From contig CAJINV010000013.1 of the NCBI GenBank assembly GCA_905178155.1, positions 1,044,344-1,108,343 on the forward strand: 64,000 bases of DNA, in the 5' to 3' direction. The notes beneath the pieces are model-generated. The model did no database searches. It saw nothing but the letters and a program-made list of their open reading frames with translations, and was not told the origin of the DNA. How positions within the stretch are numbered: the first letter of the stretch is position 1; each line of letters begins with the position of its first letter. Source of the stretch: Amoebophrya sp. A120 (taxonomy: Eukaryota; Protista; Dinoflagellata). This document shows positions 13,980-61,100 of this stretch, piece after piece. The position numbers and the translations under genes were made by a program.

Positions 13980-16900
13980 TTACATTCCTTCGTCTACTAT
14001 TTGCAGCGCTTTCAACTTTTCGATCTCCTTCTCCACGCCATTTTTCCCGTTTATTTTCTGCATTTCAAACATGATGTCCCCTCTGCGGTAGCTCCAGAAC
14101 TCGGCAAACCCGTCCTTCTTTGCCCGACAAGCGTGGTCGTTGTGCTTTCCGCAGAGAAAACAGTACTTGTACCATCCGCCCTTAGCTTCGTCGTACCGGT
14201 CCACCGTGTACTCAATCTCTTCCGGTACCTTCAGTAACTTCTCCTGCTCGCGGAGCAAAGTGATGAAGTGCCTCATGTTTTTCGCTTGAAGAGAACTCGT
14301 CGTAGTGCTCGTTGCTCGTTGTATTTGCCGCAATAGCAAGTACTGAAAGAAGGCGAGAATCTTGTCGTAGGTCGGCACACGCTGGAAAAAGTGGTTCCGC
14401 ACAAAGGGGGAAAAACAGTGCTGCAGTGTGGATGCGAAAGTGACAGCGCATAATTCCGTGGTGGAACTGAAAGAAGAATCGCAATCGGAATCGTTCCTGA
14501 TCTTCACGACCTTCCAGCATTCTTCTGCGCTAACCATCTTGCAGATTTGCGACTTCGCCAGCTGCTTGACGATCAGTTCCCTCGAAAACGCGGGCTGCTT
14601 CGTCAACGTCGTCATTTTTCCCGCCAGCTGCAACGAGGTTGGCAAAATTTTCGTCCTCGGGTCGTGGATCAGATGGGCGGAAACCAGGTAACTGATGCAC
14701 GTCTTCACGATCCGCACCTGCTCCATCACCAGCTTCTTGTGCAGACCCGGGTAGTCGTCGAAAAATCTTCTCTTCAGCATCTTGAGGTCCGACTCGTAGG
14801 CCGGTATGTTGTCGCTCTCGATCAGCCTCGCGACGTTGATTTTGTTGTTTGAAAACTGCGCCGGCTGGTAAAAGACCGTCATGATCATGGCAAGGATCAA
14901 CTTCTGGCACCCGGAAGCCAGCAGCTGGACCGCGATTGGGAAGGCTGCGCTATCGTTTGGAGCCGACAGCAAGGCTGCTAAGGTAGGATCCTGGTTGATG
15001 TTGTCCATAATCTTAGCAGAACAAGTAGTGGCCCCAGATCCGGTCAGTGAGTGGAAATTTTTTCTCAGCAGGTCGAACCTTCGCACGGGGTCTCCTTGTG
15101 GGGAGGACGACGAACAAGCGGGTGCGCCCGAAGAACTCGTGCTGTGCTGCTGGTGCTCGTCGTGGTCGGCAAAAGCTCCGCCCGTCTTCGCGTTCTGAAA
15201 GACAATTTCCAAGGCACCGATCAGCGCCTCCAGCACATTCGCGTACCGCTTCGCCCAGTTTTTTCCGTTGTACGAAACGCGATCGAATTCCACTGAAATC
15301 TTCGCTCGGCGAAACTCGTCGGTCGCTTTTTTCAGCGCTTTTCTGCGCTTGTCCGAAGTGTGTTTGTAGTTGAAAAAGGTGATTTCTTTGTTGAGTGTGC
15401 TACCATAGGACGATCGGTAGTCTCGCTCCTTGTGGTCGACGTTTTCACCATGGTGATTTTCTATGTGGCCAGCTGCACTTGACGCCGTCGACCTAGTAAC
15501 TGCGTCTCTTGCTGCACGAGCAGCGAGCAGCTCTCCTTCTGTCGGCAGAATTCTTCCGCCCTCCCGGTTGAAAAGCGGCTGCGGATTTTCTTGGTCATCG
15601 ATGCCCCTCGACAGGTCTTCTTTGTCGAAGTCGTCTAAAGCAGAGGAAGAAGCAACTTTCGCTCCAGAGGCAGCGGTAGCTGCAGTTTTGGAAGAAGATG
15701 AAGTAGTACTGCCCTTGTTCGAGTTTTTTGAAGTAACGTACTGCTCCAATCCCATGTTCTCAAACATCATTTTTGCCACCTCAGTTCTCAACTCCATTTC
15801 TTCGTCGCTATACTTGCCTCTGCCGGGGAGAGTTATGTCCGATCTATGACAGTGCACAACTACCCCACCGCTTCGCCGCATTTGAAGTGCATGAGCAGCT
15901 ACTGAAGCGATGCAAAAAATGTAGCTTTCCCATGACAAGGCCACGTGCGGATTGTATCAGTACTGTCTGGGAGGTTGTTGACGAAGCGTGTCTTGTCATG
16001 CAGAGAGTGCTTCAAATCGCAAATGAAGTCAAGCGGCTTCGGAACTTCGCAGTTCGCACGACAAAGGAAAAAAATGCGGGGTTCTTGTGCACTGCCGTAC
16101 GAGGACCTGCGTCCAGTTGAGAAACCAGTGTCGGACGTCAACGTGGAATCGCGACGGCTCTTTTTGTTGGTAATTTTTGAAGAGACTGCAGTATCTTCGG
16201 CTGCTACTCCACCGCTTCCCTTCTTCAGAGGACGACCGTTGCTTTCCCTTGTTTCTTCCTCGAACAGCGACTCGCCGACGATGGTCATGATGGCGTTCAT
16301 GTTGGCGTACTCCCCGATGCCGGCGCAAAACTGGACCAACCGCTTCTGCCACGCGTCGTGGGAATTTTTGGGTTTCTTGACCTCCTCGTCATTGCGCAGC
16401 TCGTCGAAAACCTCCTCACTGACCACCTCCAACTCTATCTCGATATCCTCCCACGGGAGGTGGGTCGACACGGGCGGAGGAGGAACGGTTCCCATGGGGG
16501 GTTCGAGTTCGTGCTGTCCTTGCGTGAATGCTATTTTCGAGCCGTTGCGTAGGTCGTCGTGGTCGACATCATTATACCGGTTATTCGGCGAGGTGATTAT
16601 TGCGTCAACGTCGTATTTCTCGTAGCCAAGATCGTTGTTCGCCAGGTCAAAGCCCTTGCCGGGTTTCGGATCATTCATCTGCTTTGCCCCACCATAATTG
16701 TTCGCATGAAGATTAAGATCGATCCGCGGCGAATCCAGCGCTTCGATATCAAATTTCGGTGAGGGGAGAGACCGTGAGGACTCGACTGTCCTCTTGCTAG
16801 ACGCTGTCGCTCCACCTCGAAGGTGACTCGTCTCTGCTTGTTTTGTCTTCGTCCTGATTTGTGGCGGCGAATCGCAGGTGGAGAAATTCGACGAAAGGTT

Positions 16901-31600: not shown

Positions 31601-34600
31601 ATCCGCATGTTTTTCAAAAGCGATCTCGACATCTGCAGGTCGGATAGGCTGTAAGAATTTTTGTGCGGTGCGGTTTGACTACGGAGGTTCGACATTTTGC
31701 TGATCTGTTCCTCGGCGGCTTTCGCCGCTGCGAGCATTTCTGGCGGTAGGTTGTCGTTTTCGTCAGGAAGTTTGTTCAAACAACTGCCTTGTCCAGCACT
31801 GCTGCCGTCAAGCGTCGGACTACTCGCGTTGTCCAAGCCCTGGAGGAGCATCGGCAGCCAGTCGGAAACGACACCGAACGGCGTGTGGTACTTGCCCGTG
31901 GGATTATTGAGTTTTGTGGTGGCCAGCAAGTCACCAGTTTTCGTCGGGGATGTCTGGCACCGCGGTGAAAGAGCAGCAGTTCCTGCGCCTTCGGACAGTT
32001 GTCCTCGTCCCGTGGATGCATTATCAACCCCTTCTCCGTGGTTCCCTTCGATCGTATCAGCCACGGCTTTCTCCACACCATCCACGATCGCGCGGGCAAT
32101 CGACCCCGCGTCGCTTCTCTTTGCATCATCGGGCTGTAAATTATCCGGCATTTTTGCCTTTTCGTTTTCCAGCTCCTCCAGCGTTTTTTCGATGCTGTTC
32201 CGCAAGTCAATGTCCAAATTTGCCATTTCCGACTGGTGCTCCTCAATGGACTTCAAAACCTCCTGTTCCCGGAGATTTTTCGTTGTTTTGAAGTCGTTGT
32301 CGTCCAGCAAATCACTCACGTTAAAGGGCGTCGGGGTCGTGCTCGGCCGGTAGCCCTGCGCACTGCCCATCCGGAGAATCGGGTCCGATTGCAACAAGCT
32401 GGTGGTCGAATGCCGGGAGTTTTGCCGGCTGTTCCGGTAGCTCGGGGCTTTGTTGCTGCCCGGAGTGCGCAACTCGGATTGTTCGCGGAGGAACGTCAGC
32501 AGGTCTTTCCCGGCAAAGTTCAGCGACATGGCGTTCTGCTTGTCCTGCTCAGACATCGGCTTATCGGCGGTGGAGGGGTTGGTGACATTTGTTCCGCCAG
32601 AAGGCGTGTTCTTCCCCCCAGAAGCATTGTTGTTTGCCTGAAGATCGTCGTCAGTCGCGGCTCCCGCTGCTGCTCCAGAAAGCAACTGCCGTCTGCTGGA
32701 CCCGCCGGTGCTCGACTTGCTGGCCTCGCCGACGTTTTGGCCGGCCTGCGCCTTCCGGGCCGCGGCGAGGTTCACAACGTGCGAGTTGGCCTCCTCCAGC
32801 ATTTGCACGACGGACTCCATGAACGGAGACAGCGGCCGCTTTTCCTTCGCGCTGTTATTGAAAAACCCTACTGCGGCGGACACCCGCGCCCAGTCGTCGT
32901 CGTAATTCTGCAGCGTGTATCAAATGCAAAAATGTCTGGGTCTGGAAACTTGTGATGCTGGGTGGCGTCTCATGATGAGGCCACAAGTGCTGGCTCAGCA
33001 TGACAAGTTTCTGAGCTTCTAGGAAGGTGTAGGTGTTGCCTATTCTGCATGACACACTGCGTTTCTGCATCACAGAAAAACGCAGCTCTTGGGTAACGTG
33101 CATGACAGATTTAAGAGTCATGCCAGACAAGCATGACAAACATGCATTCTTCCAGACCCAGACACTTTTGCATTTGATAGCGTGTTCGTGGTCCCGTCTT
33201 TCGTGATCTGCGGCGCGGCGGGAAAGATGCTTTCTTGCGAATGATCCCCAATCAGACTGTTTGCACTGTTTTGATGCCCTGCATTCGCCGCGGAAGTAGA
33301 AGTTCCCATGAAGCTGTCCAGGCTCATAGTGCCATGCTTATTGTTCGTCTTCTCGTCGAAAGAGTTACTTTCGTCTTTGTCTTTGTCATGCTGCCCACCC
33401 GCACCCGCCACCTCCTTGACCACCTTCCGGGAGACCGCGCCCTGCCCGGTTTCCAGGGCGTTTTGGCGTCGCCGCCAGGTGACGGACGTCTGCGAGCCCC
33501 AGGCGGGGAAGAAGGCGGAAGATGATCCTCCAGCTCCTCCCGAGGGGGTGTGCAGATCGGACGCGGAGTTCCCGCTTGCACCTCCACCCATTTGGATGGA
33601 GCTGGGCCGGCTGCCGTTGATATCGTGGAAGTCGCGCAAATTTTGCTCCGCCTGCAGCGAGACCTGTGCAAACATGTCATCGGGGTCGATCTGGATACTC
33701 TTCTGCTTCAGCGTTGTCTTCTCCGCGGTAGATTTTCCAGTCACTATTCCTGGCTCGCCAGCCGTGGACTTTCGGCTCTTGTTCGACGCGTTTGCAGCTT
33801 CGGTTTTGCTCGCCCCAGTCGCGGCAGATTTCTTCGTCAGGGAATAAGTCGTCTTCGTGCTCTTCACGTGTAGGCTGGACGCTAGGCCGAGCGAAAGTTT
33901 TCGGTCGCGAATAGATTTCGTGTCCTTGACCGGGGAATCGGGTTCTCCTTTGGAGTTCTTGTCAACAGCAACTGAGCCGTCTTCTTGCTCCGGCGCGTTT
34001 CCCTCAACTGCTGTCTCAGCGCTGGTACCTGAAGAAGCCGCCCCCGGGGTGGCCTCCTTCTCTTTCTCCCCCCCAACTTCCTTTTCCAGCAAGGTCGATG
34101 CAGTGACGGACGGTGGCTCCGTACTGTCTGCAGCAGCAGCGCCATCAGCCCCCGCAGCTGCCCCGCCTGGCGGTAATTTCGTCCACCCTTTCGGCGGTTC
34201 GTCTTGCGGCAGAAGTTGCAAATCTAGTTGTTGGTCATTTCCGCCCGTCAAGGTCGTACAGGACTCGGTTCCGGACGCGGTCTGGTCCTCCTCTTGCGTT
34301 TCCTCATTCGCGAGAGTACTGGAAGAATCTTCGTTGGCAGCATCGGCTTCTGCTTGCTTGTTTTCAACACCGATTTTTTCCTCGTCCGATCCCGTAGCAT
34401 CACGCCCCGCATCCTTCTTCTCTTGATCCTCAGCCACGGGACCGAGTATCCCCGCAGGAGCAACATCGGTCATCTCTTGGGAGATGACCACAGCCTGACT
34501 CATGACCTCTGTCTGTGCAACGATTTGTGCTGCAGCCTCTCCAACCGGAAGCGCGGTATCTTCTCGTGGACGCTGCGAAGCTAGAACATCACCAGCACTT

Positions 34601-42763: not shown

Positions 42764-45700
42764 TCATTGCTTTTGCCCACCACGGCGACCCTCTTCCCTG
42801 CTCTTCTCATCCTCCTCCTTCTGAATTTGCTCCGGCGTTTTGCCTCGTCGCCTATAACAGTGCACAACTCCCCCTCCCCCTCATTTGTGTAGCATGAACG
42901 GCAATACAAGCATCAGCAAGAGTGCCGGTTTTGCATGACAAATTTGCACTGAATTATACATAGTGCTATTCGGGCTACCAGAACTTGTCATGCAAACAGT
43001 GCCACGATGCAAAGGGTGGATTGGGTATTTTGCATGACAAATGAGGGGGAGGGGGAGTTGTGCGCTGTCATATCGCCGTTGCTTCGTGTTGAAGTACTGC
43101 ACCGCCCGGACGAAGTCGTCCGCGTGGTAATCGGGAAAGTACTATGCATTGCAAATATGTCTGGGTCTGGAAGGTTGCAACTTGTGATGCAAATTTCACA
43201 CAACACAAAGATCTGTGATGCATGAACAGCAAATGCGGCCCAAAACTTGGCCCAAAAACAGCGAATCTGTCATGTGGATCAGGCATGGGGATACCTTCTC
43301 AAGACGTGTGATGCTATGGCTTGCATGCCAGACCTCCTAGATCATGCAAGAGCAGCATGGCAAATATCTGGACCCATCCAGACCCAGACATATTTGCATT
43401 TGATAAGTACTTGGACTCGAACAGAATCTCGGCGTAGCGCAACTGTGGTAGACAAAACTCGGACAGCCGCTGCTGGTCGCCGGTTCTGTTGTAATCAAGT
43501 GCGTGCGATAATTAAGCTCGCATTCTTATTTCTCGAGCGCATTAGTTAGCACCAAAACTGTCTTTCGACCAGTGCACAGCAGGTGGCGCAAAGCAGTTCT
43601 ACCTGTGCCTGCTTGTGCTTCTTCGATTATGTTTATGACCTCACTACAAACTACATCATGATAAAAACCAACCTCTCCAAAAAAAAATACCTGACGAGGA
43701 GATCAATCTCTGAGTCGATGCCCATGAAGGACATCAACTTTTCGAAGTCCCAATCCAAAAATTCTGCATTTTTCTTTATCAGGTGGTCCTGGTGCATGCG
43801 CTTCATCGCCTCCTGGAGTTCCCAGCTCGAACTGTACGAGAGCAAAATGTTCAGCCGCATTTTCTTGTGCTTCCGCGTGCTGGTGTGGATCTCCTGAATC
43901 AGAGCCCGAAATTTCTGCCGCTCCTCGGTGGAAAGCTGGTAGACGAGATCGGGTTTTTTGTTATCAACATCGTGGTTAACCTGCTTCTTCGTCTCGTTTG
44001 AAGATCTTCCATCCGCTGCTGGTGCTCCCGCTGCGCTCTGCTCGCTTTTTTGTCGCTGGAATTCCGCGTTTTGCATCACTTGCTCCGTTGTCAACTGCCG
44101 CTGCTGATCCGCTTGCGCAAGCGAGTCAATCGACTGGCCGGAGGAGGACTTGGACCTGACTCCGGATAATTCTGTGTTGAGTTGTAGTCCCGCAGCAGTT
44201 GCAGTGGACGGCGCACCTGCATCTTTATTCCCACTCGACGTCCCAGTGACTTGCCTTTCCGGCGTGGGGCTCCCTCCTGCTTCCGCCTGCTGCTCTATCA
44301 AAAGGAAAAATCCCCCCTCCCCATATCAAAACGAGATTTCTGATGCTGGATTTGGGTACACAAATCAAATTTGTGTTGCAGTAGAGGAATGCACAGCACA
44401 GATCCTGAGCCTGGGCGGGGGCCATTTGGTGTAGGCGCCTAGCATGGTAAACGGCTATCCTGTAGGCCTTACAGCGTTACAAATCGCCTGCATAGCGTGC
44501 CGGACAACCTGAGCGCGCCTTCTTGCAAGACAGACCCCATTTGTGGTCACAAATCACCAGCACAAATTTTCGGAAACATACCTTTTCGATATGGGAAGGG
44601 GGGATTTTTCCTTTTGATATGCTCGCCCCGAATGTCTTCCTTGATGGAACTGGCGTTCGACGCCCTGCCGGGGGAATGATACCGGAAAAACCCACCGTGC
44701 ACGGGTGTCGGGGTGCTCACGGCACTGAAGTTGGGGAGCTGCTGTTGATCATGCCCTTGTGGTCTACAACTGCTCCCTTGGCCGCCTATAATCAACGACG
44801 AGTTGTCTCCACCGCCTGCAGGTCCCGTGGCAAGGGGCCCTCCCAATGCAGCGGTGCTCATTGCAGACAGTTGCAACGGCTGCGGCCGCAGGAGAGGGAA
44901 GGCGGCTTTCTGCTGCAGCAACCTGGTCATAGAAGACGTTGGCGAAGCAGAGGATAGTGGTGCTGGTGCCCCACCACAAACTCCTCCTGCTGCAGAAGAG
45001 ACCACAGGCTGCATGGTCGTGGCTGATCCAGTTGTACTAGAGGCTCCTCCTGTCGCGGTACAACTACTTTGCAGCTGCCCTCGTAGTTGCTGTCCACCGG
45101 CCGCGCCCAGGAGGTTCATCTGATTCATCTTCGCGCACAGCGCCTCGTGCTGTTGCGCTTGAAATTCTTCTTTCGCTTGCGAGTTCCATACCACGTTGCA
45201 CCAGGAGGGGGATATCGACCCCGCCTGAATTTGCTGGAACGAACTACTCACCCCGGAGAAGAGCGAGCCGCCGGATTCCGAGGGTTGCTTCAGCGTGACC
45301 GACGAAATGGTCGAGGCCAGTGTATCCGGCGAATCGCTCCGCTGGGGCAGGACGCCTGTGGGCGGCACCGGGAGAAAGCTCTGGGCCGCCTGGTCCGCCG
45401 CAATCGGACCGGCGGTAGGTGGAGTGAAGGGTTTATGCAAGTAGAGAAAAACTGTGTTAGTCTGATGAAGAAATAACAGATGCGCGGCCCTTTACGTTTA
45501 TTTCACACTTGTCACGCCGGATGGTGATCTTGGTACCGTCAGAGCGGCTTTCCATGGTTTTAACAAGGGACTCCGCGTACTTCTAGTGGCGCACGTTATC
45601 ATGCTGCTCATCGAAAAATGTACTTATTTTTACACCAAACACAGACTAAACTAAAACTTTTTTTTTGAATAGGGAGGTGCGCTGCTCTGCTGCTCCAAAG

Positions 45701-47903
45701 CATTTCCTTGGACCACTACACCTGTATTAGTACTACGCTGCCCGTCTTCCCGCTGATGGTCACCACCTTGTCCCTCGACCATAACTCCGTCCTGCTCCTC
45801 CTCCTCGTCTTCTCGTGGCGAGTTCCTGCGAGAGCTCAAGTTGCTGCCATCACTTACCGGGGTGGGTAGGTGCTCGGAGGAACTGGTATCCAACACGTGC
45901 GGCTGTCCTTCCTCGGCATTATTTCCGGGCGGTTTGCCGAAGCCCTTTCCCTGTGAAGATCCACGGCGCGCGGACGACTTCGAGGTTGTGTCCGACACAA
46001 CCTCGAAGTCGTCGAAAGGGGGCGAAAGATCGCCGATCACGCGAAGCTGAATTTCGTTGTCTTTCAGCTGTTTTCGGAGCTCCGGATCGGTCAAAAAGTT
46101 CGTGAACCTAGCCATTAAGTGCTGCACTTCGTCCTTAGGCCGCTTCCAATTGTCCGAACCTTGAGGACGTAGAAAAAAAGTCAAGTCATGTTATCAAGGA
46201 GCTTTTCCACAGATGCATGGAACAAATAAGAACAAATTAGAAAACCAGCACGCCTCGTATCTTAAATTTTTGTGGTTCAAAAACCTTAAGCTCCGAACAG
46301 GTCACTTATGAAAAATGAGAAAGTAATTGAAAAAATTGTATACTGAAAGCGTATAGCGTCAGTTGCGGAATGCCAATTTTCGCCGCCGTTTCGATCAACT
46401 CGCGGACATTTTTCTCCGCCTCACTGTGCCCCGCAGATCGGTGGAACCCCCTTGAAGACGCCCAGCGCCCGTTCCCGTCCATCACTACACCCACGTGGTT
46501 GGGGAGCTCAAGTGGACCGCGTTTTGCCAGAGGTTTCTTCTCCGTATCCAGCTCGTGGGTGACTGTCGGGTAAAACGCGAGCAGCTGGTCTAGCGTAAGC
46601 GGCTTGGTAAAAACCGTCCCACCCGTCGAGGAGGCTTGTTCCGCAGTTTTCATATTCACTTTGGTCAGGAAACTTGACGCTGGACTGTTGCTTTCTGCAG
46701 CCTGTCCGCTCGACGTCGTGGCTCGGTCAACATTCAATGAGTGATTGTTCCACCAGAAATTTTTGCACTTGAAAAAAAAATCCTCCGGCGTAGTTGCCGC
46801 TTCAGTAGCGGAGGCTGACGTCGTCATCTTCGTGCTGGTGCCCATCAGGCTAGTACCACTCAAAAGAGGATGCGCTGCCCGCGCCCAAATCGAGGTTGGA
46901 AGCAGAGAGGAGTAGTAGATTGGCGCACCACCTCCAGCAGGTTCTTTATTTTGTGAAGATCCGGCTACAACTACTTCCCGCTGCATTTCCGCCTCATACT
47001 GCTGCTTCCGCAGGGTCAACGCCTCCTCGAAAGTGGGGATCTGGAACGACGGGGGAGCGAAGTTGACATTGACGGCGGGGGTAGAGACCAAATGCATGCC
47101 GCGCTCAAAATTAGTGAGCGACCAGAAGGGCGCTGCATTCAAATTCATTGGCGTCGTGCTGCTGCTGGCCGCTTCTTCGCATGAGAGAACCGCAGGTCCG
47201 TTGAGTTTATCGACTCTTGTTCCTGCTCTACCAGTAGATGACGGCGTTGCTGAATTTTTGCAACTACTAGCCAATGACCCGGACTGCTGGCCACTAGGGA
47301 GGACGGAAGAGGAACTAGTACTGCTCTCTCGACGAGCGACATCGTCCTCCACTTGGGTCACCTCCTGCTCCAGGGGGAACGACACCGTCTTCGCATATCG
47401 TGAGGAAAAATCCCCCCTCTCCACATCAAAAAGGGATACTTCTGAAAATTTGCGATGCTGATTTGTGGCCACAAATCGTCTCTGTATTGCAAGAAGGCCA
47501 AGCCAGAGACTCCGCCGCATTTTGCAGGCGGTTTCTGATGCTATGGGGCCTACAGAGTACACATTTGCCATGCTACGCGCCTACGTCAAAACCCTTCTAC
47601 TTAGGCTTGGTATGGGCCTGCAGTCCTCTACTGCAAGACAGACCCGATTTGTGTACCCAAATCCAGCATCAGAGACTTCCTTTTGATATGGGGAGGGGGG
47701 ATTTTTCCTTGTGATATCGCAACCGCCGTTTTCTGGTGCTCAAAGAGCTTGGCTCGGCCAATCGTCGACGCAATCGTGGAGGCAATAGCGGTGCTGCTCA
47801 CCAAGAGGAGGTGACAAAGTGGCTGCACCCATTTTTTCGGTACAGGGAGAGGAGATCTCGAGAGACGAGTTCTGGTAGAAGACACGGGGCCGCAATTCGT
47901 CAT
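42764..47903 (-). CDS. cis-prenyltransferase (UPPS/DHDDS family), about 1,119 aa, eight exons
   Basis: Motifs PNHVGVVMDGNGRWA, GH, YAFSSDNWKRP, RVIGD, LNILLSYS, DLLVRTGDQQRLSEF, YAEILF, FPDY and QRRRG are assembled from exons 47903-47717, 47390-46344, 46159-45672, 45428-44620, 44290-43691, 43485-43406, 43137-43073 and 42847-42764 (3,360 nt). Confidence 0.9.
42853..43072. mobile_element. TIR intron element, family C
   Basis: TATAACAGTGCACAACTCCCCCTCCCCCTCATTTGT with an inverted copy. Perfect TCGCC TSD. Removal restores the C-terminal RRRG motif. Confidence 0.95.
43143..43405. mobile_element. TIR intron element, family A
   Basis: TATGCATTGCAAATATGTCTGGGTCTGGA with an inverted copy. Perfect AGTAC TSD. 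Removal gives ESKYFPDY. Confidence 0.95.
44296..44619. mobile_element. TIR intron element, family B
   Basis: TATCAAAAGGAAAAATCCCCCCT with an inverted copy. Perfect TGCTC TSD. Removal gives IRGEQQAEAG. Confidence 0.95.
45434..45671. mobile_element. Probable aged TIR intron element
   Basis: TATGCAA...TTGAATA ends, flanks GGGTT/GGGAG. Removing 243 nt gives SAPP|FTPP. An alternative GT-AG intron (about 45721-45452) also keeps frame. Confidence 0.55.
45973..46013. repeat. Perfect 41-bp palindrome inside coding sequence
   Basis: GACGACTTCGAGGTTGTGTC-C-GACACAACCTCGAAGTCGTC. Confidence 0.95.
47396..47716. mobile_element. TIR intron element, family B (opposite orientation to 44296-44619)
   Basis: TATCGTGAGGAAAAATCCCCC...GGGGGATTTTTCCTTGTGATA. 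Perfect TCGCA TSD. Removal gives TAVAKTVSFP. Confidence 0.93.
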
Positions 47904-49672: not shown

Positions 49673-50674
49673 GTGTTTGGTCTCGTGTCCTGGCCGCTGG
49701 CTGGGTGGTGCCCTCTTTAAAGCACAAGTAGCAGAAACAGACTTTATTTCCTTTACCTATTGTGACCACTGCGTGGGAACAGAACGCACACTAGTAGGTC
49801 ACTCTCCAAACCAAAAAAAAATCACTGAAGAGCGTGCATGATATCGGAGAGCTACCGGCAGGACGTCCGTGCGGCTGCGGCCTTCTACTAAAAAATCAAT
49901 AAAAAGAGAGAAAGTCATATTTCAATCGTAGGAGTGCGTAACAGAAGCAATTATCTAAAGAGTAAGTATGTCTCTTCTATTGAATAGATTATTGTCTGCT
50001 AGCTGAAACTACTTTTACCACACGTACACTCCTGATCCTGCTGATGCTTTATGTGTAACTAATGGTATCTTGTGCCTCGCGCCACCCTTCTCTCCACAGG
50101 CACAGACGTACGAACGATCTCTGACGTTAAACCTGATAGTACTGCGGCGAGCCAAACCTCGAGCGTCCTCTGTCGAACCGGAAGCATATGGCCTCTCTTA
50201 CCTCACTCTTAACATGACAACAACAAATTGCCGTGTACTAGAAGATCGATATCCAGACATGATTATGATATTTGCATTATGCATATGCGACGAAAACAAG
50301 CGACGCGACCCAAGCGATGCAGACCGATCTGGGAAGTTCGGTCTAGCCGGTTAGAAGCATCAATATTTATGAAGATGATCGCACACGCGTTTAATACGAA
50401 GCGAAAACTTAAAACATAATGCCACAGAGGCCTCGGAAAGCACGCTGCCGCCCCCTCTGGCAAGACAGAGCAAAGCTGATTTGTATGCACAAAGAAATCA
50501 GCGGCAGCAGCATGATCGATCCATGTTGTTGAGTAGAAATGTCTACTGTAGTACCTTGGCAGTCTGTGAAGGAAAGATTTTTTTTTCATGCTTACAAAAA
50601 AATATGTCCGTCAAAGATGATTTTCTCACTCCGCCTAGGAACAGGTGGACACAAAGCAGCCGATTTCATTTCTC

Positions 50675-51039
50675 TATACATTGCAAACATGTCTGGGTGG
50701 TCTGGAAAGATGCAAAGTTGTGATGCTTAAAATGACTTGTGATGCTCGTAGTTGTCCGTGTTAACACACAAAAATCTGTCTTGCAAGACTCGGAAAAGTA
50801 CCCATTTTAGGGCATGTTGCTGTAGTGCTTGTAGCCATGTACATGTTGACAGTGCACTTCTCCTACAGGATAGGCATCGCATAGACCCTGCTAGATCTGT
50901 GATGCTAGGCCCCACATTTCAGACATCGTGGGGGCGGGGCTTGCAAAACGAAAACCTTCACCTGCATGGCAAAGATCTGCATCTTTCCAAATCCACATCC
51001 AGAGCCAGGAATTCTATTTCTAAGTATTTGCATTTGATA
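50675..51039. mobile_element. Degenerate family A TIR element
   Basis: TATACATTGCAAACATGTCTGGGT...TATTTGCATTTGATA. Flanks TTCTC/TTCTT. Insertions within both TIRs. No clean frame restoration. Confidence 0.8.
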
Positions 51040-51049
51040 TTCTTTTCTA

Positions 51050-51776
51050 CTACGGTTGAGCTACTAGCACTGGCTCTCCAATGTTCGGATTCTGGTTCGG
51101 GTCGAGGTTCTGGTACCACCAAGAAAAATTGGATGTGCCAAGCTTTTGTGGACAGTGGCCTTGGTCCCCCGGCACGATGTCCCAAATAGTTCCACAGGGC
51201 AAGTTTTTATTGCTTTCGTCGCTAGAAGCTTCTAAACTTGTTATCCTCGCCTCACCAAACCAGAAATCGTGCTCTTGATACCAGTACCCAGAAACGACGT
51301 CCCCGATCGGGAGTTGTGCACTCAACATGTGCGCTTGTTCATCATTCTGGGCATAATCGGTCCAGGACGAGCTCATACCCCATTCGTGGTTTATCAAATG
51401 CAAATACCTAAGTATGTCTGGGTAAGGAAGACAACTGTGCCGGCACCCATTGGGCGACATGACAAGTACTAGTTGGGAAGTGGATTGCGCGCAGAAGCAC
51501 TACGGGTCTTCGTCTTGTTGCGAAATATTCTTCATGCATACCTACTTTTCCGCATGAGAAGTTCTCCTCTTGCATCGCAAAAAAGAAGCAACTATCCGTA
51601 TTCCCACGCCACACATTTATGTGCTGTTGAGATTTAGCATCACAAGGAAGTTGCAAACGCATCAATATTCCAGACCCAGATGACATATCTGCAGCGCATA
51701 TGGTTTATGCTCAGTGCTTGCAGGACCGGCAAAGAAAAAACCACGTATATCCGGAGTGGAAACGACGCCCTTGCCC
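51050..51776 (-). pseudogene. Possible gene fragment or pseudogene between two decayed TIR elements
   Basis: Removing 51387-51700 gives an open frame ...IYVVFSLPVLQALSINHEWG...VAQP, which stops at tandem TAG codons just before the next element. Confidence 0.35.
51392..51700. mobile_element. Degenerate family A TIR element
   Basis: TATCAAATGCAAATA(CCTAAGTA)TGTCTGGGT...TTCCAGACCCAGA(TGA)CATATCTGCAGCGCATA. Perfect TGGTT TSD. Confidence 0.85.
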
Positions 51777-52167
51777 CTACGTAAAGAGGGAAAAGTTTGC
51801 GCAGAAAAGTCTAGAGCTTTTGGGGCTCGCACGTGACAAGTTAGGCTTTGCAGTGTAGTCGGGCGTACTAGCTAGTCCAGACGCGGTACAAATCCTCTTT
51901 CTTATCCGTGTTACCGAAGCGCACGAAGACAGATTGAGGCTCTCAAGCACCACTAGAAAATGCCTCTCATGTTGGGAAGCCGATCATCATCATCATCATG
52001 TAGTGGACACCCGCTCCCAGCGCGACAGGTCAAGGAGCCGAAGCCGCAATCCAGCGTATCGAAATTTGCATGACAAGTCTGGGGTGTTTCTTTCATGTAC
52101 TGGAAATAAAATCCAAATAATTAAACTTAAAGCACAGAGAAGCTTGTTGGGGTGGGAACGTTTTTAC

Positions 52168-55100
52168 TCAGATGATAACGTAGATGCAGAGCACCTCCAG
52201 AACGAAGCACAAACGAGGCAGGAACAGGCTCCGTGTCACAGGCACAAGTGGGCCATCCGCACCACGACCAAGGGGGCCGTCCGCACCCCCTCCTGCGTCG
52301 TTCAAATTTCGCCGCCCACGATAGTTGTGCCACGCGGGCCGCCGTAGGAGCCGCCCGTACCCTAGCACCACAACAAAAGCAATGCACAAAAGCCAACCCA
52401 GAAGCACCGCCAGCGCGCGAAGGTATTGAGGGAAAATCAGTGATCTTGGGAAATGCTGCTACCCCTAAGAAAAATCGCAGCCTGTCATGCGGACCTGCTA
52501 TTTCCCTGTGTGTCGTCTCCTTTTCATACATGCGGGCGCAAAAAAGCACACCAGAAATCTCCTTTCCATTGCAAAAAGCGAACCAAATAAACTCACTCCT
52601 TTCCATGCGGTCTAGAGTGACTTTTCGTGGGCGTTTTGGTTTTCTTCGCATCTTCGCAAAGAGCCATTTATAGGCGAACCCGCGTCAGGCGCTGCCTTTA
52701 TTTTTCTTAAGACTAGCAGCAGTCGGGAAGGTCACTCATTTACCCTCCATAGAAGGGCTACCATGCGGTCGATATCTTCGCCGAGACGGTAACCTAGGCC
52801 CCGTTTCTGGCAATTATCCAATGGCAGCCCAGTTTTCGTGTGATAGAGCTGATGAGTTTTCCAGTTATAGAGCGGACCTCCTTCTGGGTAAACCGACACC
52901 TCGGCGTTCACGTCGTGCAGCGTTGTGTATCCCACAAGAAAAAGCTAGCAGCTTAATGCGAAAGCAAATACATAGAAAGTTCCGTCCTGAATAGCCTAAA
53001 CGCCACCCATGCTCTGGGCCTGGTGCCCATCATGAGAGGTCTTTTTGCCATTGCCTATTTACTTTTCTTGCATATAGATTCACAAATATGTTCCCTTGCT
53101 AGCTTTTTTCTGTGTGATATCACATTACTACCTTTCCCGAAGAGCCGCCATGCGTAGAAAACTGGGACGTTTTCCCCGAGGAAAATTTGCACCGTCTCGA
53201 ACAAAAGCATGAAAAACATCGAAACGGGGGCGCACATGTAATGGGCCCATCGCAAGTATTTCCGCGAGGGCCGCACGTGCCTTGCGAGGACCTCCTCAAA
53301 CAGCTCCACGTTCGATCCCGTCCTCGCTTCTCGCGCTTCTTCTTCGTCGTCGTCTTCGTTCGGCTCCTCCTGGTGCTCCTCGCGCAGCTGCAACTTTTTT
53401 TTCTCCTGGTCACTCGGAGACGAGTCCTCTGCCTTCACCTTCTGGACGTTTTCGCTTCTTGCGGAGGTCATAATTTTCTCGTGGTGTGTAATATCGTCGA
53501 TGGAGGGCAGGGCTGCAGTTAAAACGAAGCCGGTCGCGGGAAGGAGGAGCAGCAGAGCCCGGAGGCAAATATTCAGTGCAAATATGTCTGGGTCTGGAAA
53601 GGTGCAACTTGTGATGCTGCCTTTGGATTCTACATAAAATCTGTATTGCGTGAACAGTAGAAGAGGTCCAGTTGTTGCTACGCAAAGAGAGCAAATATCA
53701 TGCGGTAGGAGCATCAGAAAGCCCCCACAGAATCTGTGATGCTAGGGCATGCATCACAGACATAAGAAGTCAGGCAAAATGTGCATGACAAACCTTGCAC
53801 CGTTCCAGACCCAGAAACTTTTGCATTTGATAGCAAATCTCGGTGTACGACTGGGTCGCCGCAAATGTCAAACCCAAATTCTCCGAAAGACTCGGCTTCA
53901 TGAAGCACCAGGGCGAGTGCAGCGTAAAGGTGTGCCGACTCAGGATGATGCACACGCCAAAGAGGATCAAGCCCGTGGTGAACATAATGCCCTCCGGCGA
54001 GGTCTGCGACTGGCAGACGGCGCTCAGGGTCATGTTCTTGCAAAAATCCCCGGGTATCACGTAAAACTGCTCGTCATGGAAGCCACGGATCAAGTGCTCC
54101 CGCCCACTGGCAACGAGCTCCTCTCTGTGCCGGCGGGTCGGAAAGCGCCGCGGGCACAGGACCAAATGTACGGGCAGCAGCGTCGCACCCACGGCGGAGA
54201 TGTATGCGATCGTGACTATCAAATGTAAAAATGTCTGGGTCTGGAAAAGTGGAACTTGTAATGCTAGCTTTACATTCCTGGAAAATCTGTATTGCAGAAC
54301 CAACAAAAGTCGCAGCCACTTTTGTCATGCAAAAAGGCAGTTTCTCATGCGGATTGCGTATGAGAAAGCGTTCTGGAAAGTTGTCATGCTGGGCTGCGTT
54401 CGGAAGTAGTTCCGTCATCCACATTTTAGCATCACAGGTCTCCAGACCCAGACATATTTGCATTTGATAGTGACGAGTATGCTGCTAAACATGAAGTCGG
54501 ATCGCACCGTGCCAACCAAGAAGGCAAACATTTTCTGCAAAATGATGTCGGTGACCGCCCCCGCCTCGCGGACGCGTCCCAGTGCTTCCGTGGTGTTTTG
54601 GGCCAATTCGGCGGACCGTGCGGACAAAGCTGCATAAAAGTCCTGACCTTCTACTCCCTCATCTTCGTCCAAGTTGTAGCGAGTCTTGATCCCTTCGCTC
54701 GTCCTCTTCGCATCAGCTCCTGGTGGCGCGGTGGTGCCCACCATTTTGTTTCTGGATCCGGCCTTCTCGGTCGTACTAGTCCCGCTCACCCGCAGCTCCG
54801 TCGTCGCGGGTTCTCGTTCTGCTGGTGAGTTTTCATCATTTCGACCTGGTGCGCCGTTCTGGTTGGATTTCTCTACGTAGCTTTCGCCCAACGAGCTCGT
54901 TCGCGACAAAGAAGTAGATCTCCTCGTTGTGCGCTCTGGCGGCTCCTGCTGTCGCTCCTGCAGCTGGAGAACTAGCCACTTCAGCTCGTCCACCTCCCGC
55001 GCCATGCCCTCCATCTTCACCTGCATCGCTTTAGTGCCGTCAGTTGTCATCTCGGCATCTTCAGCTACTTCAGGAGATTCAACTTGTAGTTGCGCTTGCG

Positions 55101-55659
55101 CACCTGCATCTTCATGTTGAAACGGCGCGTCTGCTTGCTCCCCTTTGATTTCCTGATCCATCCCCTGCTCCACCTCTCTGACCCCGTCATTGTGGTGCTG
55201 CTGTCCAGCTAGAACTAGAAAAGATTCCTGGTCGTGCTCCGCTGCAGGACCGGCCTCCGCATGAAGATCCTCTTCGTCCAGTGGACTTCCACCCTCGCCG
55301 GCCACCGCCCCTTCGTCCTCGCGGCGGCCCGACGTTGTTGGAGTCTTGCCAGTGGGCTGCTCCTTATGTTCATCGTTCTTTGCCTTCAGCATCCGGACTG
55401 CCTCGAGCTCGCTAGGAGCAGCTCGTGCTGTTCTTTCCTCACCGTCGACATCGACCAGCGGCACCTCATTTGTTGCCAACACGACCGACACCGGCGTATT
55501 ATAATTGGGGAAGCACATGATCACGGCCGCGAGTTGTAGAAGTACTAGTGGAGACAGGACAAAAAGCAGAAAGCGATCAACAAATCCTCGTGATCCCAAC
55601 CCCGGCGCAGAAGAAAAAGAAGCAGGAGAGCGCGGCATTTGAGTCGGACGACCCTCCAT
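52168..55659 (-). CDS. Multi-pass membrane protein, about 811 aa, four TIR introns; C-terminal half loosely Frag1/DRAM/Sfk1-like
   Basis: Exons 55659-54470, 54211-53833, 53564-53120, 52922-52752 and 52418-52168 total 2,436 nt in frame. One N-terminal and about six C-terminal hydrophobic segments. LSAVCQSQTSPEGIMF and HYMCAPVSMF recall that family (weak). Confidence 0.75.
52424..52751. mobile_element. TIR intron element
   Basis: TATTGAGGGAAAATCAGTGATC vs TATGGAGGGTAAATGAGTGACC. Perfect GAAGG TSD. Removal gives MVALRALAVLLG. Confidence 0.9.
52928..53119. mobile_element. TIR intron element, family D
   Basis: TATCCCACAAGAAAAAGCTAGCA vs TATCACACAGAAAAAAGCTAGCA. TSD lost. Removing 197 nt gives GSNVTLHDVN. 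Confidence 0.82.
53570..53832. mobile_element. TIR intron element, family A
   Basis: Family A TIRs. Perfect GCAAA TSD. Removal gives YTEIC|LRALL. Confidence 0.95.
54217..54469. mobile_element. TIR intron element, family A
   Basis: Family A TIRs. Perfect GTGAC TSD. Removal gives SILVTIAYIS. Confidence 0.95.
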
Positions 55660-57486: not shown

Positions 57487-57673
57487 CGGACAAGCGAAAG
57501 CCAGAACTTGCGAAAGGCGGAAGCCAAATTTCCCGACAAGCGGAAGCCAAAGTTCGAGGCTCCGAAAAAGCGGAAGCCAAAATTTCCGACAAGCGGAAGC
57601 CAAATTTTCCGACAAGCGGAAAGCCAAAATTTCCGACAAGCGGAAGCCAAAATTTCCGACAAGCGGAAGCCAA
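57487..57673. repeat. Minisatellite, about 8 copies of a ~23-bp unit
   Basis: CGACAAGCGGAAGCCAAAATTTC repeated in tandem. Confidence 0.9.
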
Positions 57674-57826
57674 ATCATCCGCAAAGCGGGCCAAACAATC
57701 ATCCGCAAAGCGGGACTAACGATCATCCGCAAAGCGGGCCAATCATCCGCAAAGCGGGCCAATCATCCGCAAAGCGGGACTAACGATCATCCGCAAAGCG
57801 GGACTAACGATCATCCGCAAAGCGGG
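57674..57826. repeat. Minisatellite, 7 copies of a 20/24-bp unit
   Basis: ATCATCCGCAAAGCGGG core with 3- or 7-nt linkers. Confidence 0.9.
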
Positions 57827-58114
57827 ACAAACGAGACTTACTACCAACGGCAGGGGCGTTACTCCCTGGGAACAAGAGAAGGCGAACAAATACCACCCCG
57901 AAATTCGGTGGGTTGTCCTGACTAATCTTCTCAAGTCCTGGCTACCGTACACTAAAGGGCTGAGGGCGGACACGGGCATAAAATACCGCCCGACCATCCT
58001 CAGCCTAGGCTCACAGGCTCGCTAGCCTGTTGCTACCCGGGCATACATTTTCGTGGTCTTTTATTTTTTGTTCTCAAGAAGTAAACACCTGACTAGATGA
58101 AGTAAGACTTTGTT

Positions 58115-61100
58115 TTATTGAATCATGTAGCAGATCCTGGGAAACTGCGGGATGACACTTCTTTCCAAGTAGAAGGGGTGCTGGCTTAGAAACGTCTGCA
58201 CCGCGCACCGCTCCTCCACTGTTAGCAGCGAAAGCCTCGTCGTCCGCCAAAGGTTTTCAAAGTGCACAATTGACCGGGCCACCGGGTGCCATTCCAAGCG
58301 GAGCGACAGAGGAAGGGCGGAGTCGTAGAACCGAGATTTCAGCAGGATGGAGGTTTGCTGGTCGTGGTGCGGGTCCTTGTGATGTTCTACTTCTTCTACT
58401 TCCGCCAATCGCCCTCGTCCTCGACTTTTTCTAGTTTTTTCCCCTCTACTACTTCGCTGAAGAGCCGGCCCACTGCTCCTTCCTTGGTACCCGAACTGAA
58501 ATTCCAATTCGTTTTCGTTCCTACCGTTCGGATCAACAAGTACATTCTTTTCGCTTTCGAAATTATTAAACGGACCACTGCGGGGCACGTAGGCGAACAA
58601 CACGCTCCACAAATGTTCGAAGATCATGCAGATGGCCTTGTTGTAAATTTTCGGCGTCGATGTGATGTCAACCCGGACGGAGACAAAATCGGTGACGCGC
58701 GGCCCCCGCAGCGCATCCGGCTGAAACATCGTTTTCGAAAGGCCTCTGTGCACCTTGTTGTGCCACGCGGCGCGGTAGAAGTTATTTGATGCAGTTCTGC
58801 TTCGGTCGCGGCGCCGTTCTTGTTGTGGTGCCTGTTGTTCAAATCCCGCACTTATCAAATGCAAAAGTGTCTGGGTCTGGAAGATTCTGAGATTTGTCAT
58901 GCATATTTTGCATGACCCAGGATGTCTGTAATGCACGACCTAGCATCACAGATTTTTAGAGGGCTTCCCAGCCAACTCCGCATGACAAATGCCCTCCCCG
59001 CGTAGCAGAAACGAACCCTCTCTTGCTGGTCATGCAATACAGATTTTTTTAGAGTCCAAAGTTAGCATCACAAGTTCCAACGTTCCAGACCCAGACACTT
59101 TTACATTTGATAGCACTACCGCTGAAAAACGCCTGCCACGTGTGCTCGACCGACTGCAGGCCAAACGCCACCTGCGTGTACCAGGAACGCGCCTTTGACA
59201 AAACAGCCGCTTTCGACAGGAGAAAGACCCCGTAGTCGTATCCGCCGAAGTGGTGTTGCGGCAGGGTGAACTTCTCTTGAAACAGCACGTTCCAAATTCT
59301 GCGGTGGAGCTGCAGCTCGTACGCATCCGGCAGGCGGTGGTACGTGGCTTCCTCGTAGTTGATTTTCCCGCGCTTGATCGGGTTCTTCGTCTTTGCGGCA
59401 TCGAAGTACTTCGATTTCACAAACGTGCGGAATTTCTCGAAGTAGGAGCGAGATTTCATCAAATGTTCTGGCTCATCTTCGTGAACTACTACAGGATCGC
59501 CGCTCGGTGCTGGCAAAAGTCTCTCTTCGACAAACTTCTGTATTCTGGCTTGCTTCATAACGGATTTCAGTCGCGCTTTGGCTTTGTCATCTACTGCACG
59601 ACGGAGTAGGGCGGGAGGCAATGGCACTTCTGTATTCTCTATCTCTGCACCGGAAAAACCAGCAGGGTCCGCCGCACCAGGTCCATCATTTTCATAATTT
59701 GGACTGATGGCGCCGTCGGGAGAAATAGGAGTTCTTGCGCTAGAAGATGTAGCGTCAACATTCTCGATCTCTTCGTACCACCCGTCGTCCATTTCGAAAT
59801 CCTTTTTGTTCAAGAAGTCGCCCATTTCCCCGCTCTCCAACCCGACTTGGTGGTACACAAACGTTTCGGGGGAAACGAAGCCGCCGAAACTTGCTGGTTG
59901 AGATACAACTGTGCCTGCGGTGCTGTGGCCGTTCTGGCCGTCAACTATTATTTCCTCGCCCGCTGAGGACAATCTTCCTTCATTCGTTTCTGTGCTGTCA
60001 CGACGATCAGCAACGTCCTCGCGGTCCTCTCTTGGCGGCCACATTAAAAGAGACTCGCGGCCCGCCCCCTCGTCCACGCTTCCACGAGATGAAACCACGC
60101 CAAATGCTTTCGACTCGTCCGACGCAAGGAATTTCTCCCGCAGTAATGAAAGGGGTGGAGGAGAGGACGTTAATGTTGCACCAGCATCGTGGTCTTCTTG
60201 TATGCTAGTTGTACTTCTTGTAGCGGCCTTAATGTTGCTCATTATCTTCCTGGTTGGGAACACTGGTTCGTGCAAGAGCGGTCCGTGCTGCCGTTTTCCC
60301 AAGTGCACCACGTCTGCCTTGATCTCCCGCTTCCACTCCTGCCCCCGCTCCAACGCTTCAAACAAAGCCTGCATGATGCCCGGCGTCGCGTGCTCCCGCC
60401 AATCGGGGTGGGCCATGAAAGTCACATCCGGCAGCTCGTCGTAATACTTCGCCAAGTGCCAGAACCGCACTCCCACGTCCAAAGTTCGCACGTCTTCCTC
60501 GTGCGAGTCGTCGAAAAACACGGAATCCGCACGAAACTTCGCGCAACGGTCGAGCAGGTTCGCCGCGAGCGGGTTTTGAAGGAATCTCTCCACTTCCTGC
60601 GCTCTCTTACTCTTAGTCTCTTCTGTTTCATCTCCTAATGAAGTTTTGCTGTCCAGTAGCTCCTTCGCGGAAAAAACCCGGTAAGTTTTGTCCGTTGCTT
60701 TTTGGTGAAACGCAAAGGAATTCGTGTCGGACGCGGTGGTGGGCATCTTCGACGTAGTTTCTTCGTTGATAGAAGTCCTTGATGCACTCCTACTTGGCAG
60801 GAACCGCCCGAACTCGCCGCACAGATCGTAGAAGAAAATTCGGCTCCAGCCGGGAAACACGGAAATGTCCAAATCTTCCACATCGGATTCGGCACAAACG
60901 GGCAACACAATGTCGATGGAAATGCGGTTTTTCCGCACGCTTTCAGGCAGCTGCGTCCGCCCGTTCCAGTACTGTTTTTGCACTTCCGACACGTTTTCGT
61001 CGCTCCAGGCGCCAATGTTCATCACGGAGATGCTGTCGGACCGCTCCGACAGCTGCGCCCCGCGGTAGTAGTGGTGCTCGCGGGGCTTCTTGTTCTCCTT

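What the first reader, a model, noticed from the sequence alone, without database searches (positions are those of the whole stretch)
15840..59117. Multi-family TIR elements act as precisely removable non-GT-AG introns
Seen: 18 elements with TAT...ATA-type ends (17 of 192-365 bp, one of 953 bp), and 10 have a perfect 5-bp TSD. In 17, removing the element plus 5 nt fuses the flanking frames, and in the cis-prenyltransferase it restores conserved motifs (FPDY, RRRG). Across the possible registers within the 5 nt, only 42853-43072 can be read as GC-AG and none as GT-AG. Known: Amoebophrya is reported to carry inverted-repeat introner elements with short direct repeats, and to my knowledge the removal machinery is unresolved. 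Inference: removal is guided by the terminal hairpin, not by splice dinucleotides.
Basis: partly seen in the sequence, partly recalled or inferred. Interest (0 to 1): 0.85.

Follow-up and report, generated by a model that had tools for sequence, protein, structure and literature searches.

The report
Transposon introns cut at fixed offset
Small jumping-DNA copies with mirror-image ends interrupt genes of what is likely the algal parasite Amoebophrya A120 and are missing to the base from likely messenger-RNA contigs although they lack normal splice signals; this intron class was published in 2021, and the cuts here likely fall one base before and four bases after the element, which would give its unexplained removal machinery a simple code to test.

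Summary
Real, but a published class: the introner elements of Amoebophrya A120 (Farhat 2021), whose hairpin model is also in print. Likely-RNA contigs of one sample join directly across 6 TAT…ATA elements at element+5, fit 8 more by record arithmetic, and ignore nearby in-frame GT/GC/GA-AG sites. Only a cut 1 base before TAT and 4 after ATA fits all 7 testable joints (one contig separates it from 0/+5); the scan noted this register earlier on other pieces of this genome. Corrections: the '953-bp' element is likely 988 bp with a 6-bp duplication; the 3'-UTR copy at 50675 is retained. 'Not dinucleotides' holds; 'guided by the hairpin' is unproven: 45434-45671 has no predicted terminal stem yet is removed, 84 copies from a second assembly show no G·U bias, and N-TAT copies the commonest canonical donor (GTAT). 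I favour a relaxed, U1-less spliceosome (0.5) over a hairpin-reading nuclease/ligase (0.3).

The parts
11283..11544 (-).
   Evidence: joint 11277^11545 in X3 and X4; fits 0/+5 or -1/+4 only; AG directly after ATA not used
15845..16099 (-). element of the 42853 family, 255 bp, starts TAC on the sense strand, TSD 3/5
   Evidence: joint 15839^16100 in 4 of 4 runs; an in-frame GT-AG 3 nt shorter is available and not used
   Evidence: single X4 contig joint 17144^18139, 27 nt on the short side; outer arms 15 of 21 matched, inner 5-mers 1/5; no coverage of 17212-17979 in 4 runs
19247..19486 (-). element, 240 bp, 5-mers match 1/5; fixes the cut register
   Evidence: joint 19242^19488, no shared letters, one X4 contig, flagged 'between: not known'; only -1/+4 fits
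19570..19808 (-). element, 239 bp, TSD 4/5
   Evidence: joint 19564^19809, X4 only; 0/+5 or -1/+4
32918..33179 (-). family-1 element, 262 bp, perfect TSD
   Evidence: 29/30 arm match; fuses ORFs to 3810 aa; no RNA laid here
42853..43072 (-). element, 220 bp, perfect TSD, in the RRRG motif of the cis-prenyltransferase; the only one readable as GC-AG
   Evidence: contig pieces end at 42847; record arithmetic 145 and 745 nt exact
43143..43405 (-). family-1 element, 263 bp, perfect TSD, at the FPDY motif
   Evidence: record arithmetic exact
43486..43690 (-). canonical GT-AG intron (GTAT donor), same transcript
   Evidence: required by record arithmetic
44296..44619 (-). family-2 element, 324 bp, perfect TSD
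   Evidence: direct join 44290^44620 in X6 record 14
45434..45671 (-). decayed TAT...ATA element, 238 bp, TSD 3/5, no predicted terminal stem, holds an unused CTAAC-ACAG acceptor 18 nt inside
   Evidence: 243 nt skipped by X3 record 9 with X6 record 15; end-pairing 0.1 bp expected
46160..46343 (-). canonical GT-AG intron (GTAT donor)
   Evidence: direct join in X6 record 15; retained in DNA-like X1 record 3
47396..47716 (-). family-2 element, 321 bp, perfect TSD, opposite body orientation to 44296 in the same transcript
   Evidence: contig pieces end at 47390 in X3 and X6; 77% identity to 44296 on the opposite strand
50675..51039 (-). decayed family-1 element, 365 bp, in the 3' UTR (stop at 51052-51050), retained
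   Evidence: X3 record 11 (50670-51394) and X6 record 16 read through it; weakest arm duplex, z -1.5
51392..51700 (-). decayed family-1 element, 309 bp, perfect TSD
   Evidence: needed for the 934-aa ORF; spliced form not seen directly; X6 record 16 runs 120 nt into it
51748..52177 (-). element, 430 bp, perfect TSD, weak arms
   Evidence: needed for the ORF; X3 record 12 length fits an end at 52178; spliced form not seen directly
52424..52751 (-). element, 328 bp, perfect TSD
   Evidence: ORF fusion; X3 record 12 length 2449 = 2449 with four elements removed, assuming it ends at 52178
52928..53119 (-). element, 192 bp, 5-mers match 1/5
   Evidence: as above
53570..53832 (-). family-1 element, 263 bp, perfect TSD
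   Evidence: as above
54217..54469 (-). family-1 element, 253 bp, perfect TSD
   Evidence: X3 record 12 piece ends at 54470; arithmetic
58853..59112 (-). family-1 element, 260 bp, perfect TSD
   Evidence: direct join 58847^59113 in X3 record 13
42764..47903 (-). host gene: cis-prenyltransferase (PF01255) model of 1119 aa split by five elements and two canonical introns
   Evidence: one 4057-nt X3 contig spans it
51050..55659 (-). host gene: 934-aa model of no Pfam family in the exons scanned, split by six elements

Best explanation
These are short transposon copies with TAT...ATA inverted ends and a 5-base target duplication that interrupt exons and are absent to the base from likely-RNA contigs; they are likely cut one base before TAT and four bases after ATA, probably by a relaxed spliceosome that reads the terminal N-TA(T/C) and ATA-N4 rather than GT-AG, with the hairpin likely only helping to bring the ends together. 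Steps: (1) insertion by a transposase or integrase making a 5-nt staggered cut (inferred from the TSD; the enzyme was not found); (2) transcription in either orientation, since the ends are symmetric (shown: both orientations in coding copies); (3) removal of element plus five bases, restoring the pre-insertion exon (shown in contigs for 6 elements directly, 8 by arithmetic); (4) cut register -1/+4 (inferred from 7 joints, decided against 0/+5 by one contig); (5) chemistry: N-TAT would stand in for the GTAT donor at +2 to +4, and an A of the terminal ATA would serve as branch point with the 3' cut measured a fixed distance on, which would explain why an AG directly after ATA is skipped (untested).
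For: Joints 11277^11545, 15839^16100 (4 of 4 runs), 19242^19488, 19564^19809; 44290^44620, 58847^59113 and exact record arithmetic for 42853, 43143, 45434. -1/+4 is the only register that fits 7 of 7 joints. All 9 predominant A120 non-canonical splice pairs in Farhat's Table S4 have T at +2. Predicted canonical introns: GTA in 19 of the 20 best-scoring, GTAT in 8; 35 of 241 overall vs 143 of 2482 internal GT sites. 45434 is removed without a predicted terminal stem. Canonical and element introns are removed from the same contig. Second assembly: 174 of 232 elements with a perfect 5-bp repeat, 85 of 187 fuse coding frames at +5 vs 12-17 in the other two frames, 16 same and 18 opposite orientation of 40 family-1 copies. 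Farhat 2021 found U2, U4, U5, U6 and 83 of 89 spliceosomal proteins but no U1 in A120; Mikina 2024 reviews TIR/TSD introns of Fritillaria as spliceosomal.
Against: No lariat, branch point or spliceosome dependence was or could be tested. +2 T is fixed by the TAT end, so its match to the donor may be coincidence. The 3' end has no conserved dinucleotide at all (11 different pairs in 18), which the canonical second step would not tolerate (established knowledge). 13 of 18 elements have a long predicted terminal stem that would hide both sites unless unwound. The terminal ATA is preceded by no consistent branch consensus. All RNA evidence is Logan contigs of one sample with RNA only guessed; the register rests on one depth-3.9 contig flagged 'between: not known'. 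The long element does not end in TAT...ATA. 50675 is retained and 51392 partly so. The canonical-intron set is a prediction and holds some miscalled elements. Folding predictions for 45434 may miss a stem formed during transcription.
Confidence: 0.5

Rival explanations
1. One reading: a spliceosome-independent endonuclease and ligase, or a separate machine as proposed for euglenid nonconventional introns, recognises the base of the terminal hairpin and cuts at -1/+4.
For: No usable dinucleotide at either end; long predicted stems in 13 of 18; orientation independence; the retained 50675 copy has the weakest arm duplex (z -1.5); the long element has different terminal letters but a long stem; euglenid precedent with circular products (PMC11282704 section 6).
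Against: 45434 removed with no predicted terminal pairing; 51392 and 51748 also lack it yet must be removed to keep the ORF; no G-U over A-C excess (63 vs 69, p=0.66) and sense duplex not more stable (33 of 84), though these are young copies picked for strong arms, so power is low.
Confidence: 0.3
2. Removal is real but the register is not fixed (0/+5 and -1/+4, or family-specific offsets), as Farhat's 'variable' sites suggest.
For: Only 19247 separates -1/+4 from 0/+5; position 5 of the 5-mer differs in only 1 of 7 imperfect window copies; the long element has a 6-nt unit.
Against: -1/+4 fits 7 of 7; Table S4 pairs all N-T; position 5 is not specially conserved in the second assembly (mismatches 6, 11, 6, 9, 5).
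Confidence: 0.1
3. The joints are reverse-transcriptase template switches or assembly shortcuts across hairpins with direct repeats, and the elements stay in the mRNA.
For: Hairpin plus short direct repeat is the known signature of such artefacts (established knowledge); the 17144^18139 joint sits on a 6-nt repeat at a stem base in one contig; some contigs retain 50675 and 51392.
Against: Joints with 0 or 1 shared letter (19247, 11283, 19570) and one without a stem (45434); retention breaks or diverts 17 coding junctions; 15839^16100 is the assembled form in 4 of 4 runs.
Confidence: 0.05
4. Cryptic GT/GC/GA-AG sites nearby are used, or the elements are excised from DNA.
For: 3 to 34 in-frame G[TCA]-AG alternatives lie within 35 nt of each tested element; 42853 can be read GC-AG.
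Against: Observed joints match none of those alternatives; DNA-like X1 contigs carry the elements without gaps at single-copy depth about 43.
Confidence: 0.05

Closest known systems
Introner elements among the non-canonical introns of Amoebophrya sp. A120 (Farhat et al. 2021, PMC7789003; seen: abstract, sections 10, 11, 12, 16, passages, supplement passages incl. Table S4 rows and figure legends; figures not seen)
   Same: TAT-starting inverted repeats, 3-5 nt direct repeats (5 bp in the Fig. S19 legend), about 240 nt, many families, non-GT-AG ends, RNA-seq support, hairpin model, co-oriented genes. The window's elements are most likely among the 29,850 copies counted there.
   Different: The paper calls the splice sites variable relative to the hairpin; here one register (-1/+4) fits all usable joints, one stemless copy is still removed, and a 3'-UTR copy is retained.
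Nonconventional introns of euglenids (Nomura et al. 2025, PMC12501133, abstract and outline seen; Mikina et al. 2024, PMC11282704, section 6 and passages seen)
   Same: TIR-like end pairing, TSD-like repeats, non-GT-AG ends at fixed spacing from the stem, unknown machinery, coexistence with GT-AG introns.
   Different: Code there is N3-CDG / CH'G-N5-6 | purine; here spacing is 1 and 4 around TAT...ATA, CDG at +4 to +6 in 1 of 18 and a purine at the next exon start in 9 of 18. Circular products reported there are untested here.
TIR/TSD non-canonical introns of Fritillaria borealis, and introners of Micromonas, Aureococcus and Polarella (as reviewed in PMC11282704 section 6; original papers not read)
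   Same: MITE-derived introns whose removal restores the target; Fritillaria's are reported as spliceosomal despite non-canonical ends.
   Different: Those keep preferred splice dinucleotides (AG-AC/AT, GC-AG, GT-AG); here neither end has one beyond the +2 T.
A120 introner families in Gozashti et al. 2025 (PMC12130899, passages seen)
   Same: Diverse TIR DNA-transposon introners in A120, some with Copia/Gypsy-like ORFs inside TIRs.
   Different: No autonomous copy or transposase ORF was found here.

Membership tests
Amoebophrya A120 introner elements (Farhat 2021) | borders other than GT-AG | tested here: met
   no register gives GT-AG in 18 elements; RNA joints match no nearby G[TCA]-AG
Amoebophrya A120 introner elements (Farhat 2021) | 8-20 nt inverted repeat at the ends, starting TAT | tested here: met
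   17 of 18 start TAT, 1 TAC, all end ATA; long predicted stem in 13 of 18, weak in 2, absent in 3
Amoebophrya A120 introner elements (Farhat 2021) | 3-5 nt direct repeat at the borders | tested here: met
   11 of 18 perfect 5 bp; 174 of 232 in the second assembly
Amoebophrya A120 introner elements (Farhat 2021) | repeated in the genome, several families | tested here: met
   three multi-copy groups in the window; X1 depth in element bins 8,600-155,000 vs about 43-66 elsewhere for the main families; several elements are singletons here
Amoebophrya A120 introner elements (Farhat 2021) | removed from transcripts | tested here: met
   6 direct joins, 8 by arithmetic or one-sided, 1 retained (UTR), 2 not seen spliced, 1 untested; contigs of one sample, RNA guessed
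Amoebophrya A120 introner elements (Farhat 2021) | host is strain A120 | tested here: inconclusive
   inferred from TAT ends, element size and minus-strand gene block; no genome is held and organism names are coded; the scan's notes name A120 (unchecked)
MITE / non-autonomous TIR DNA transposon | TIR, TSD of fixed length, no coding capacity, either orientation | tested here: met
   flush repeat length peaks at exactly 5 (174 of 232)
MITE / non-autonomous TIR DNA transposon | autonomous partner with a transposase; empty sites in relatives | tested here: inconclusive
   four longer family-1 spans (481-1255 bp) in 156 loci, none with a long internal ORF where examined; no empty-site comparison was possible
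U2-type spliceosomal intron | GT/GC ... AG ends | tested here: not met
U2-type spliceosomal intron | branch point, lariat, dependence on U2/U6 | not testable with these tools
   only contigs cover the genes; raw-read run X9 did not
Euglenid nonconventional intron | N3-CDG / CH'G-N5-6 | purine code | tested here: not met
   CDG at +4 to +6 in 1 of 18; purine exon start in 9 of 18 (one search read against the abstract)
Euglenid nonconventional intron | released as full-length circle | not testable with these tools
   contigs cannot show it

The most novel reading that the evidence does not exclude
Amoebophrya removes tens of thousands of transposon introns by a splice code with no dinucleotide rule: N-TA(T/C) ... 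ATA-N4, cut at -1/+4, read from the terminal triplets even after the hairpin has decayed. Either a U1-less spliceosome has dropped both G(+1) and the 3' AG and measures from a branch point in the transposon's own end, or a second, non-spliceosomal machine acts as an RNA-level excisionase for the elements.
Probability: 0.55. Interest if true: 0.75.

Novelty: already known. Interest (0 to 1): 0.43.

Why it matters
The class and the hairpin idea are published, so the finding as written is not new. What would matter is the fixed code: it would turn about 60% of this parasite's introns from 'no clear signature' into a rule, allow re-annotation of their borders, name exact targets for lariat or circle assays (the terminal ATA, the N-T start), and show how a genome can make a 5-bp-duplicating transposon harmless in either orientation. 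The stemless but removed copy and the retained UTR copy are natural mutants that separate sequence reading from structure reading.

Tried and rejected
No whole genome is held. No listed holder is on record as RNA; X3-X6 are treated as likely RNA because X6 lacks a canonical GT-AG intron that X1 keeps. The joint table was filled by repeat joints of X1 (882 rows not shown), so table 8 pieces were used. A loose duplex scan was too permissive and was dropped; a frame test without a codon model did not discriminate and was replaced. A protein search with the 16103-17143 exon found nothing, so the 994 vs 958 nt question has no protein check. Rfam: 0 matches in the window. No transposase-like long ORF inside the long element or the 972-bp copy in L071 by inspection (these internal ORFs were not scanned against Pfam). 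Drift towards GT-AG was looked for and not found (G at +1 in 33 of 90, AG in 14 of 90, close to the flank composition). RNA-level selection on the stem was looked for and not found. Amino-acid register tests on 16 imperfect copies of the second assembly were uninformative without orthologues. A circular-intron reading of the contig end at 50670 was considered and set aside: the contig runs unbroken through the element's other end. 57839-58104 rejected as an element. Literature searches listed no paper that gives a fixed register, lariats or the machinery for these introns; Roy et al. 2023 and Henriet et al. 2019 were seen only as citations, and Farhat's figures S19-S25 are images that I could not see and may bear on the register.

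Full report
Observation. The window (GC about 0.52) carries a block of minus-strand genes interrupted by short inverted-repeat elements. A de novo scan found 13 pairs with TAT...ATA ends and 9 with a perfect flush 5-bp repeat, against at most 1 and 0 in two Markov nulls. With gapped scoring, 11 pairs scored 38 or more against best null scores of 33, 39 and 33; lower-scoring copies overlap the null and are accepted only with RNA or ORF support. Eleven have a perfect 5-bp duplication and seven an imperfect one. Three groups are multi-copy within the window and reach contig depths of thousands to 155,000 against about 43 for single-copy DNA in run X1. No register within the 5 nt gives GT-AG on the sense strand, and only 42853 gives GC-AG.

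Host genes. Removing element plus five bases gives ORFs of 1131, 1973 or 1985, 3810, 1872, 943 and 445 aa, against 424, 711, 2402, 1649, 423 and 335 unspliced; leaving any one in shortens the ORF, except 42853, whose retention reads on in frame but loses the RRRG end. The cis-prenyltransferase exons match consecutive parts of PF01255, and the 26-aa exon aligns weakly to undecaprenyl diphosphate synthases; that FPDY and RRRG correspond to the family's WPDF and RRFG motifs is recalled, and the last exon alone has no hit. In a second assembly, a 972-bp family-1 copy with a perfect 5-bp repeat sits in RPB1 and its removal restores the reading GEMVGTIAAQSVGEPATQM.

RNA evidence. Four runs of one sample, RNA only by guess and kept as contigs, hold the stretch. 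They behave as spliced RNA: X6 lacks the canonical intron 46160-46343 that DNA-like X1 keeps. Direct joins at element+5: 44290^44620 and 58847^59113; 11277^11545 in 2 of 4 runs, 15839^16100 in 4 of 4, 19242^19488 and 19564^19809 in 1 of 4, the last two flagged 'between: not known'. Record arithmetic is exact for 42853 with 43143 (145 and 745 nt) and for 45434 (243 nt skipped), one-sided for 47396 and 54217, and exact for 54217, 53570, 52928 and 52424 together (2449 nt) if that contig ends at 52178, the border of the next element. The long element is joined at 17144^18139 in one X4 contig with 27 nt on the short side. I take 17151-18138 as the likely element; a template switch on this one contig is not excluded.

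Register. Where the two 5-mers differ, the contigs keep the sense-upstream copy. Compatible cuts are 0/+5 or -1/+4 (11283, 19570), 0/+5 to -3/+2 (15845), +1/+6 to -3/+2 (45434), any (44296, 58853) and only -1/+4 (19247). So -1/+4 fits 7 of 7, and a single contig separates it from 0/+5. In-frame GT/GC/GA-AG alternatives exist within 35 nt of all seven (3 to 34 each), including a GT-AG only 3 nt shorter at 15845, and none is used. All nine predominant A120 non-canonical pairs in Farhat's Table S4 begin N-T, as -1 predicts; aligner preferences may contribute. I had this register before looking at the scan's notes, where four follow-ups on other pieces of this genome report a fixed cut, two of them naming -1/+4; those notes are unchecked and are not counted as support.

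Larger sample. An exact family-1 end pattern fetched 156 loci (410 kb), those listed being of assembly JACKZZ01; they share only element sequence with the window (best 92.7%), and I did not establish their strain. Scored on arms alone, 232 elements were found, 174 with a perfect 5-bp repeat; 85 of 187 fuse coding-like frames at +5 (86 and 81 at +2 and +8, the same frame) against 12-17 in the other frames. In 90 oriented copies there is no drift to GT-AG (4 of 90 at -1/+4; G at +1 in 33, AG in 14). Family-1 bodies lie in both orientations (16 same, 18 opposite, 6 unclear), G-U and A-C mismatches are equal (63 and 69), and the sense duplex is not the more stable (33 of 84); these copies are young and picked for strong arms. 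Predicted canonical introns start GTA in 19 of the best 20 and GTAT in 8, and GTAT in 35 of 241 overall against 143 of 2482 internal GT sites (a rough prediction that includes some miscalled elements).

Mechanism. Shown: insertion-type anatomy, either orientation, removal of element+5 from likely mRNA, no use of nearby canonical sites, retention in DNA. Inferred: the -1/+4 cut. Untested: the machine. Folding predicts a long terminal stem in 13 of 18 elements, a weak one in 2 and none in 3. One of the stemless three, 45434, is removed at the usual geometry and skips an internal CTAAC-ACAG acceptor; the other two must be removed to keep a 934-aa ORF. What these copies keep is TAT and ATA. Since N-TAT equals the commonest canonical donor at +2 to +4, and the paper reports U2, U4, U5, U6 and most proteins but no U1 in A120, I favour a relaxed spliceosome that reads the terminal triplets, with an A of ATA as a possible branch point and a ruler to the 3' cut, the stem standing in for U1-type bridging (0.5). 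Template switching (0.05) does not explain joints with 0-1 shared letters or without a stem.

Known systems. Farhat et al. 2021 (PMC7789003) describe this class in A120: TAT-starting inverted repeats, 3-5 nt direct repeats, 29,850 copies, RNA-seq support, hairpins joining exon borders, machinery unknown, splice sites called variable. Gozashti et al. 2025 (passages) assign A120 introners to diverse TIR and retro-elements. The euglenid code (abstract) is not met. My searches listed no paper giving a fixed register or lariat data for these introns; subscription journals and the paper's image-only supplementary figures were not seen.

Verdict. It is an already known class; the added value is the likely fixed code, noted before in this scan, and two natural test cases. 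Interest 0.43.

Noticed in passing
window 56478-58050: Intergenic element with split direct repeats: a 172-bp repeat (56694-56864 and 57881-58051, 97%) and a 105-bp repeat (56478-56582 and 56860-56964, 100%) around 23-24-bp tandem arrays; the A-B-A-B layout recalls tyrosine-recombinase retroelements (recalled, not tested).
   Followed up: partly
window 50670: X3 record 11 ends exactly at the fifth base past the retained UTR element, and little else covers 50160-50669. Contigs cannot show an RNA end, so this is unexplained; a cut at the 3' site without joining, or a poly(A) site, would both fit.
   Followed up: partly
window 51394 and 52178: Contig ends fall where spliced and unspliced forms of 51392 and 51748 would merge or diverge, a hint of partial retention.
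   Followed up: partly
window 25330-27265: LanC-like protein gene (PF05147, E 2.5e-39 for 25330-26178) with a predicted short GT-AG intron near 26150-26230.
   Followed up: partly
window 32918-59112, element bodies: A short internal motif GCATGAC/GCATCAC recurs in both orientations across families (99 and 93 copies of the two orientations in 84 elements); possibly a transposase-binding site.
   Followed up: partly
window 17510-17860: The long element holds internal 11- and 22-bp tandem repeats in inverted arrangement and is GC-rich (0.59), unlike the short elements; no hit in the 156 loci.
   Followed up: partly
L071 3791-4762: 972-bp family-1 element with a perfect 5-bp repeat inside a conserved stretch of RPB1, followed by a GTAT-starting intron.
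   Followed up: yes
window 13986-15839: Weak ribonuclease III domain match (E 0.011, below cut-off) in the last exon of the 1973-aa model.
   Followed up: no
run X9 on 54217-54266: 121 raw reads carry a family-1 end joined to a flank from another locus, i.e. an unspliced copy elsewhere in a sample that does not cover this window's genes.
   Followed up: no
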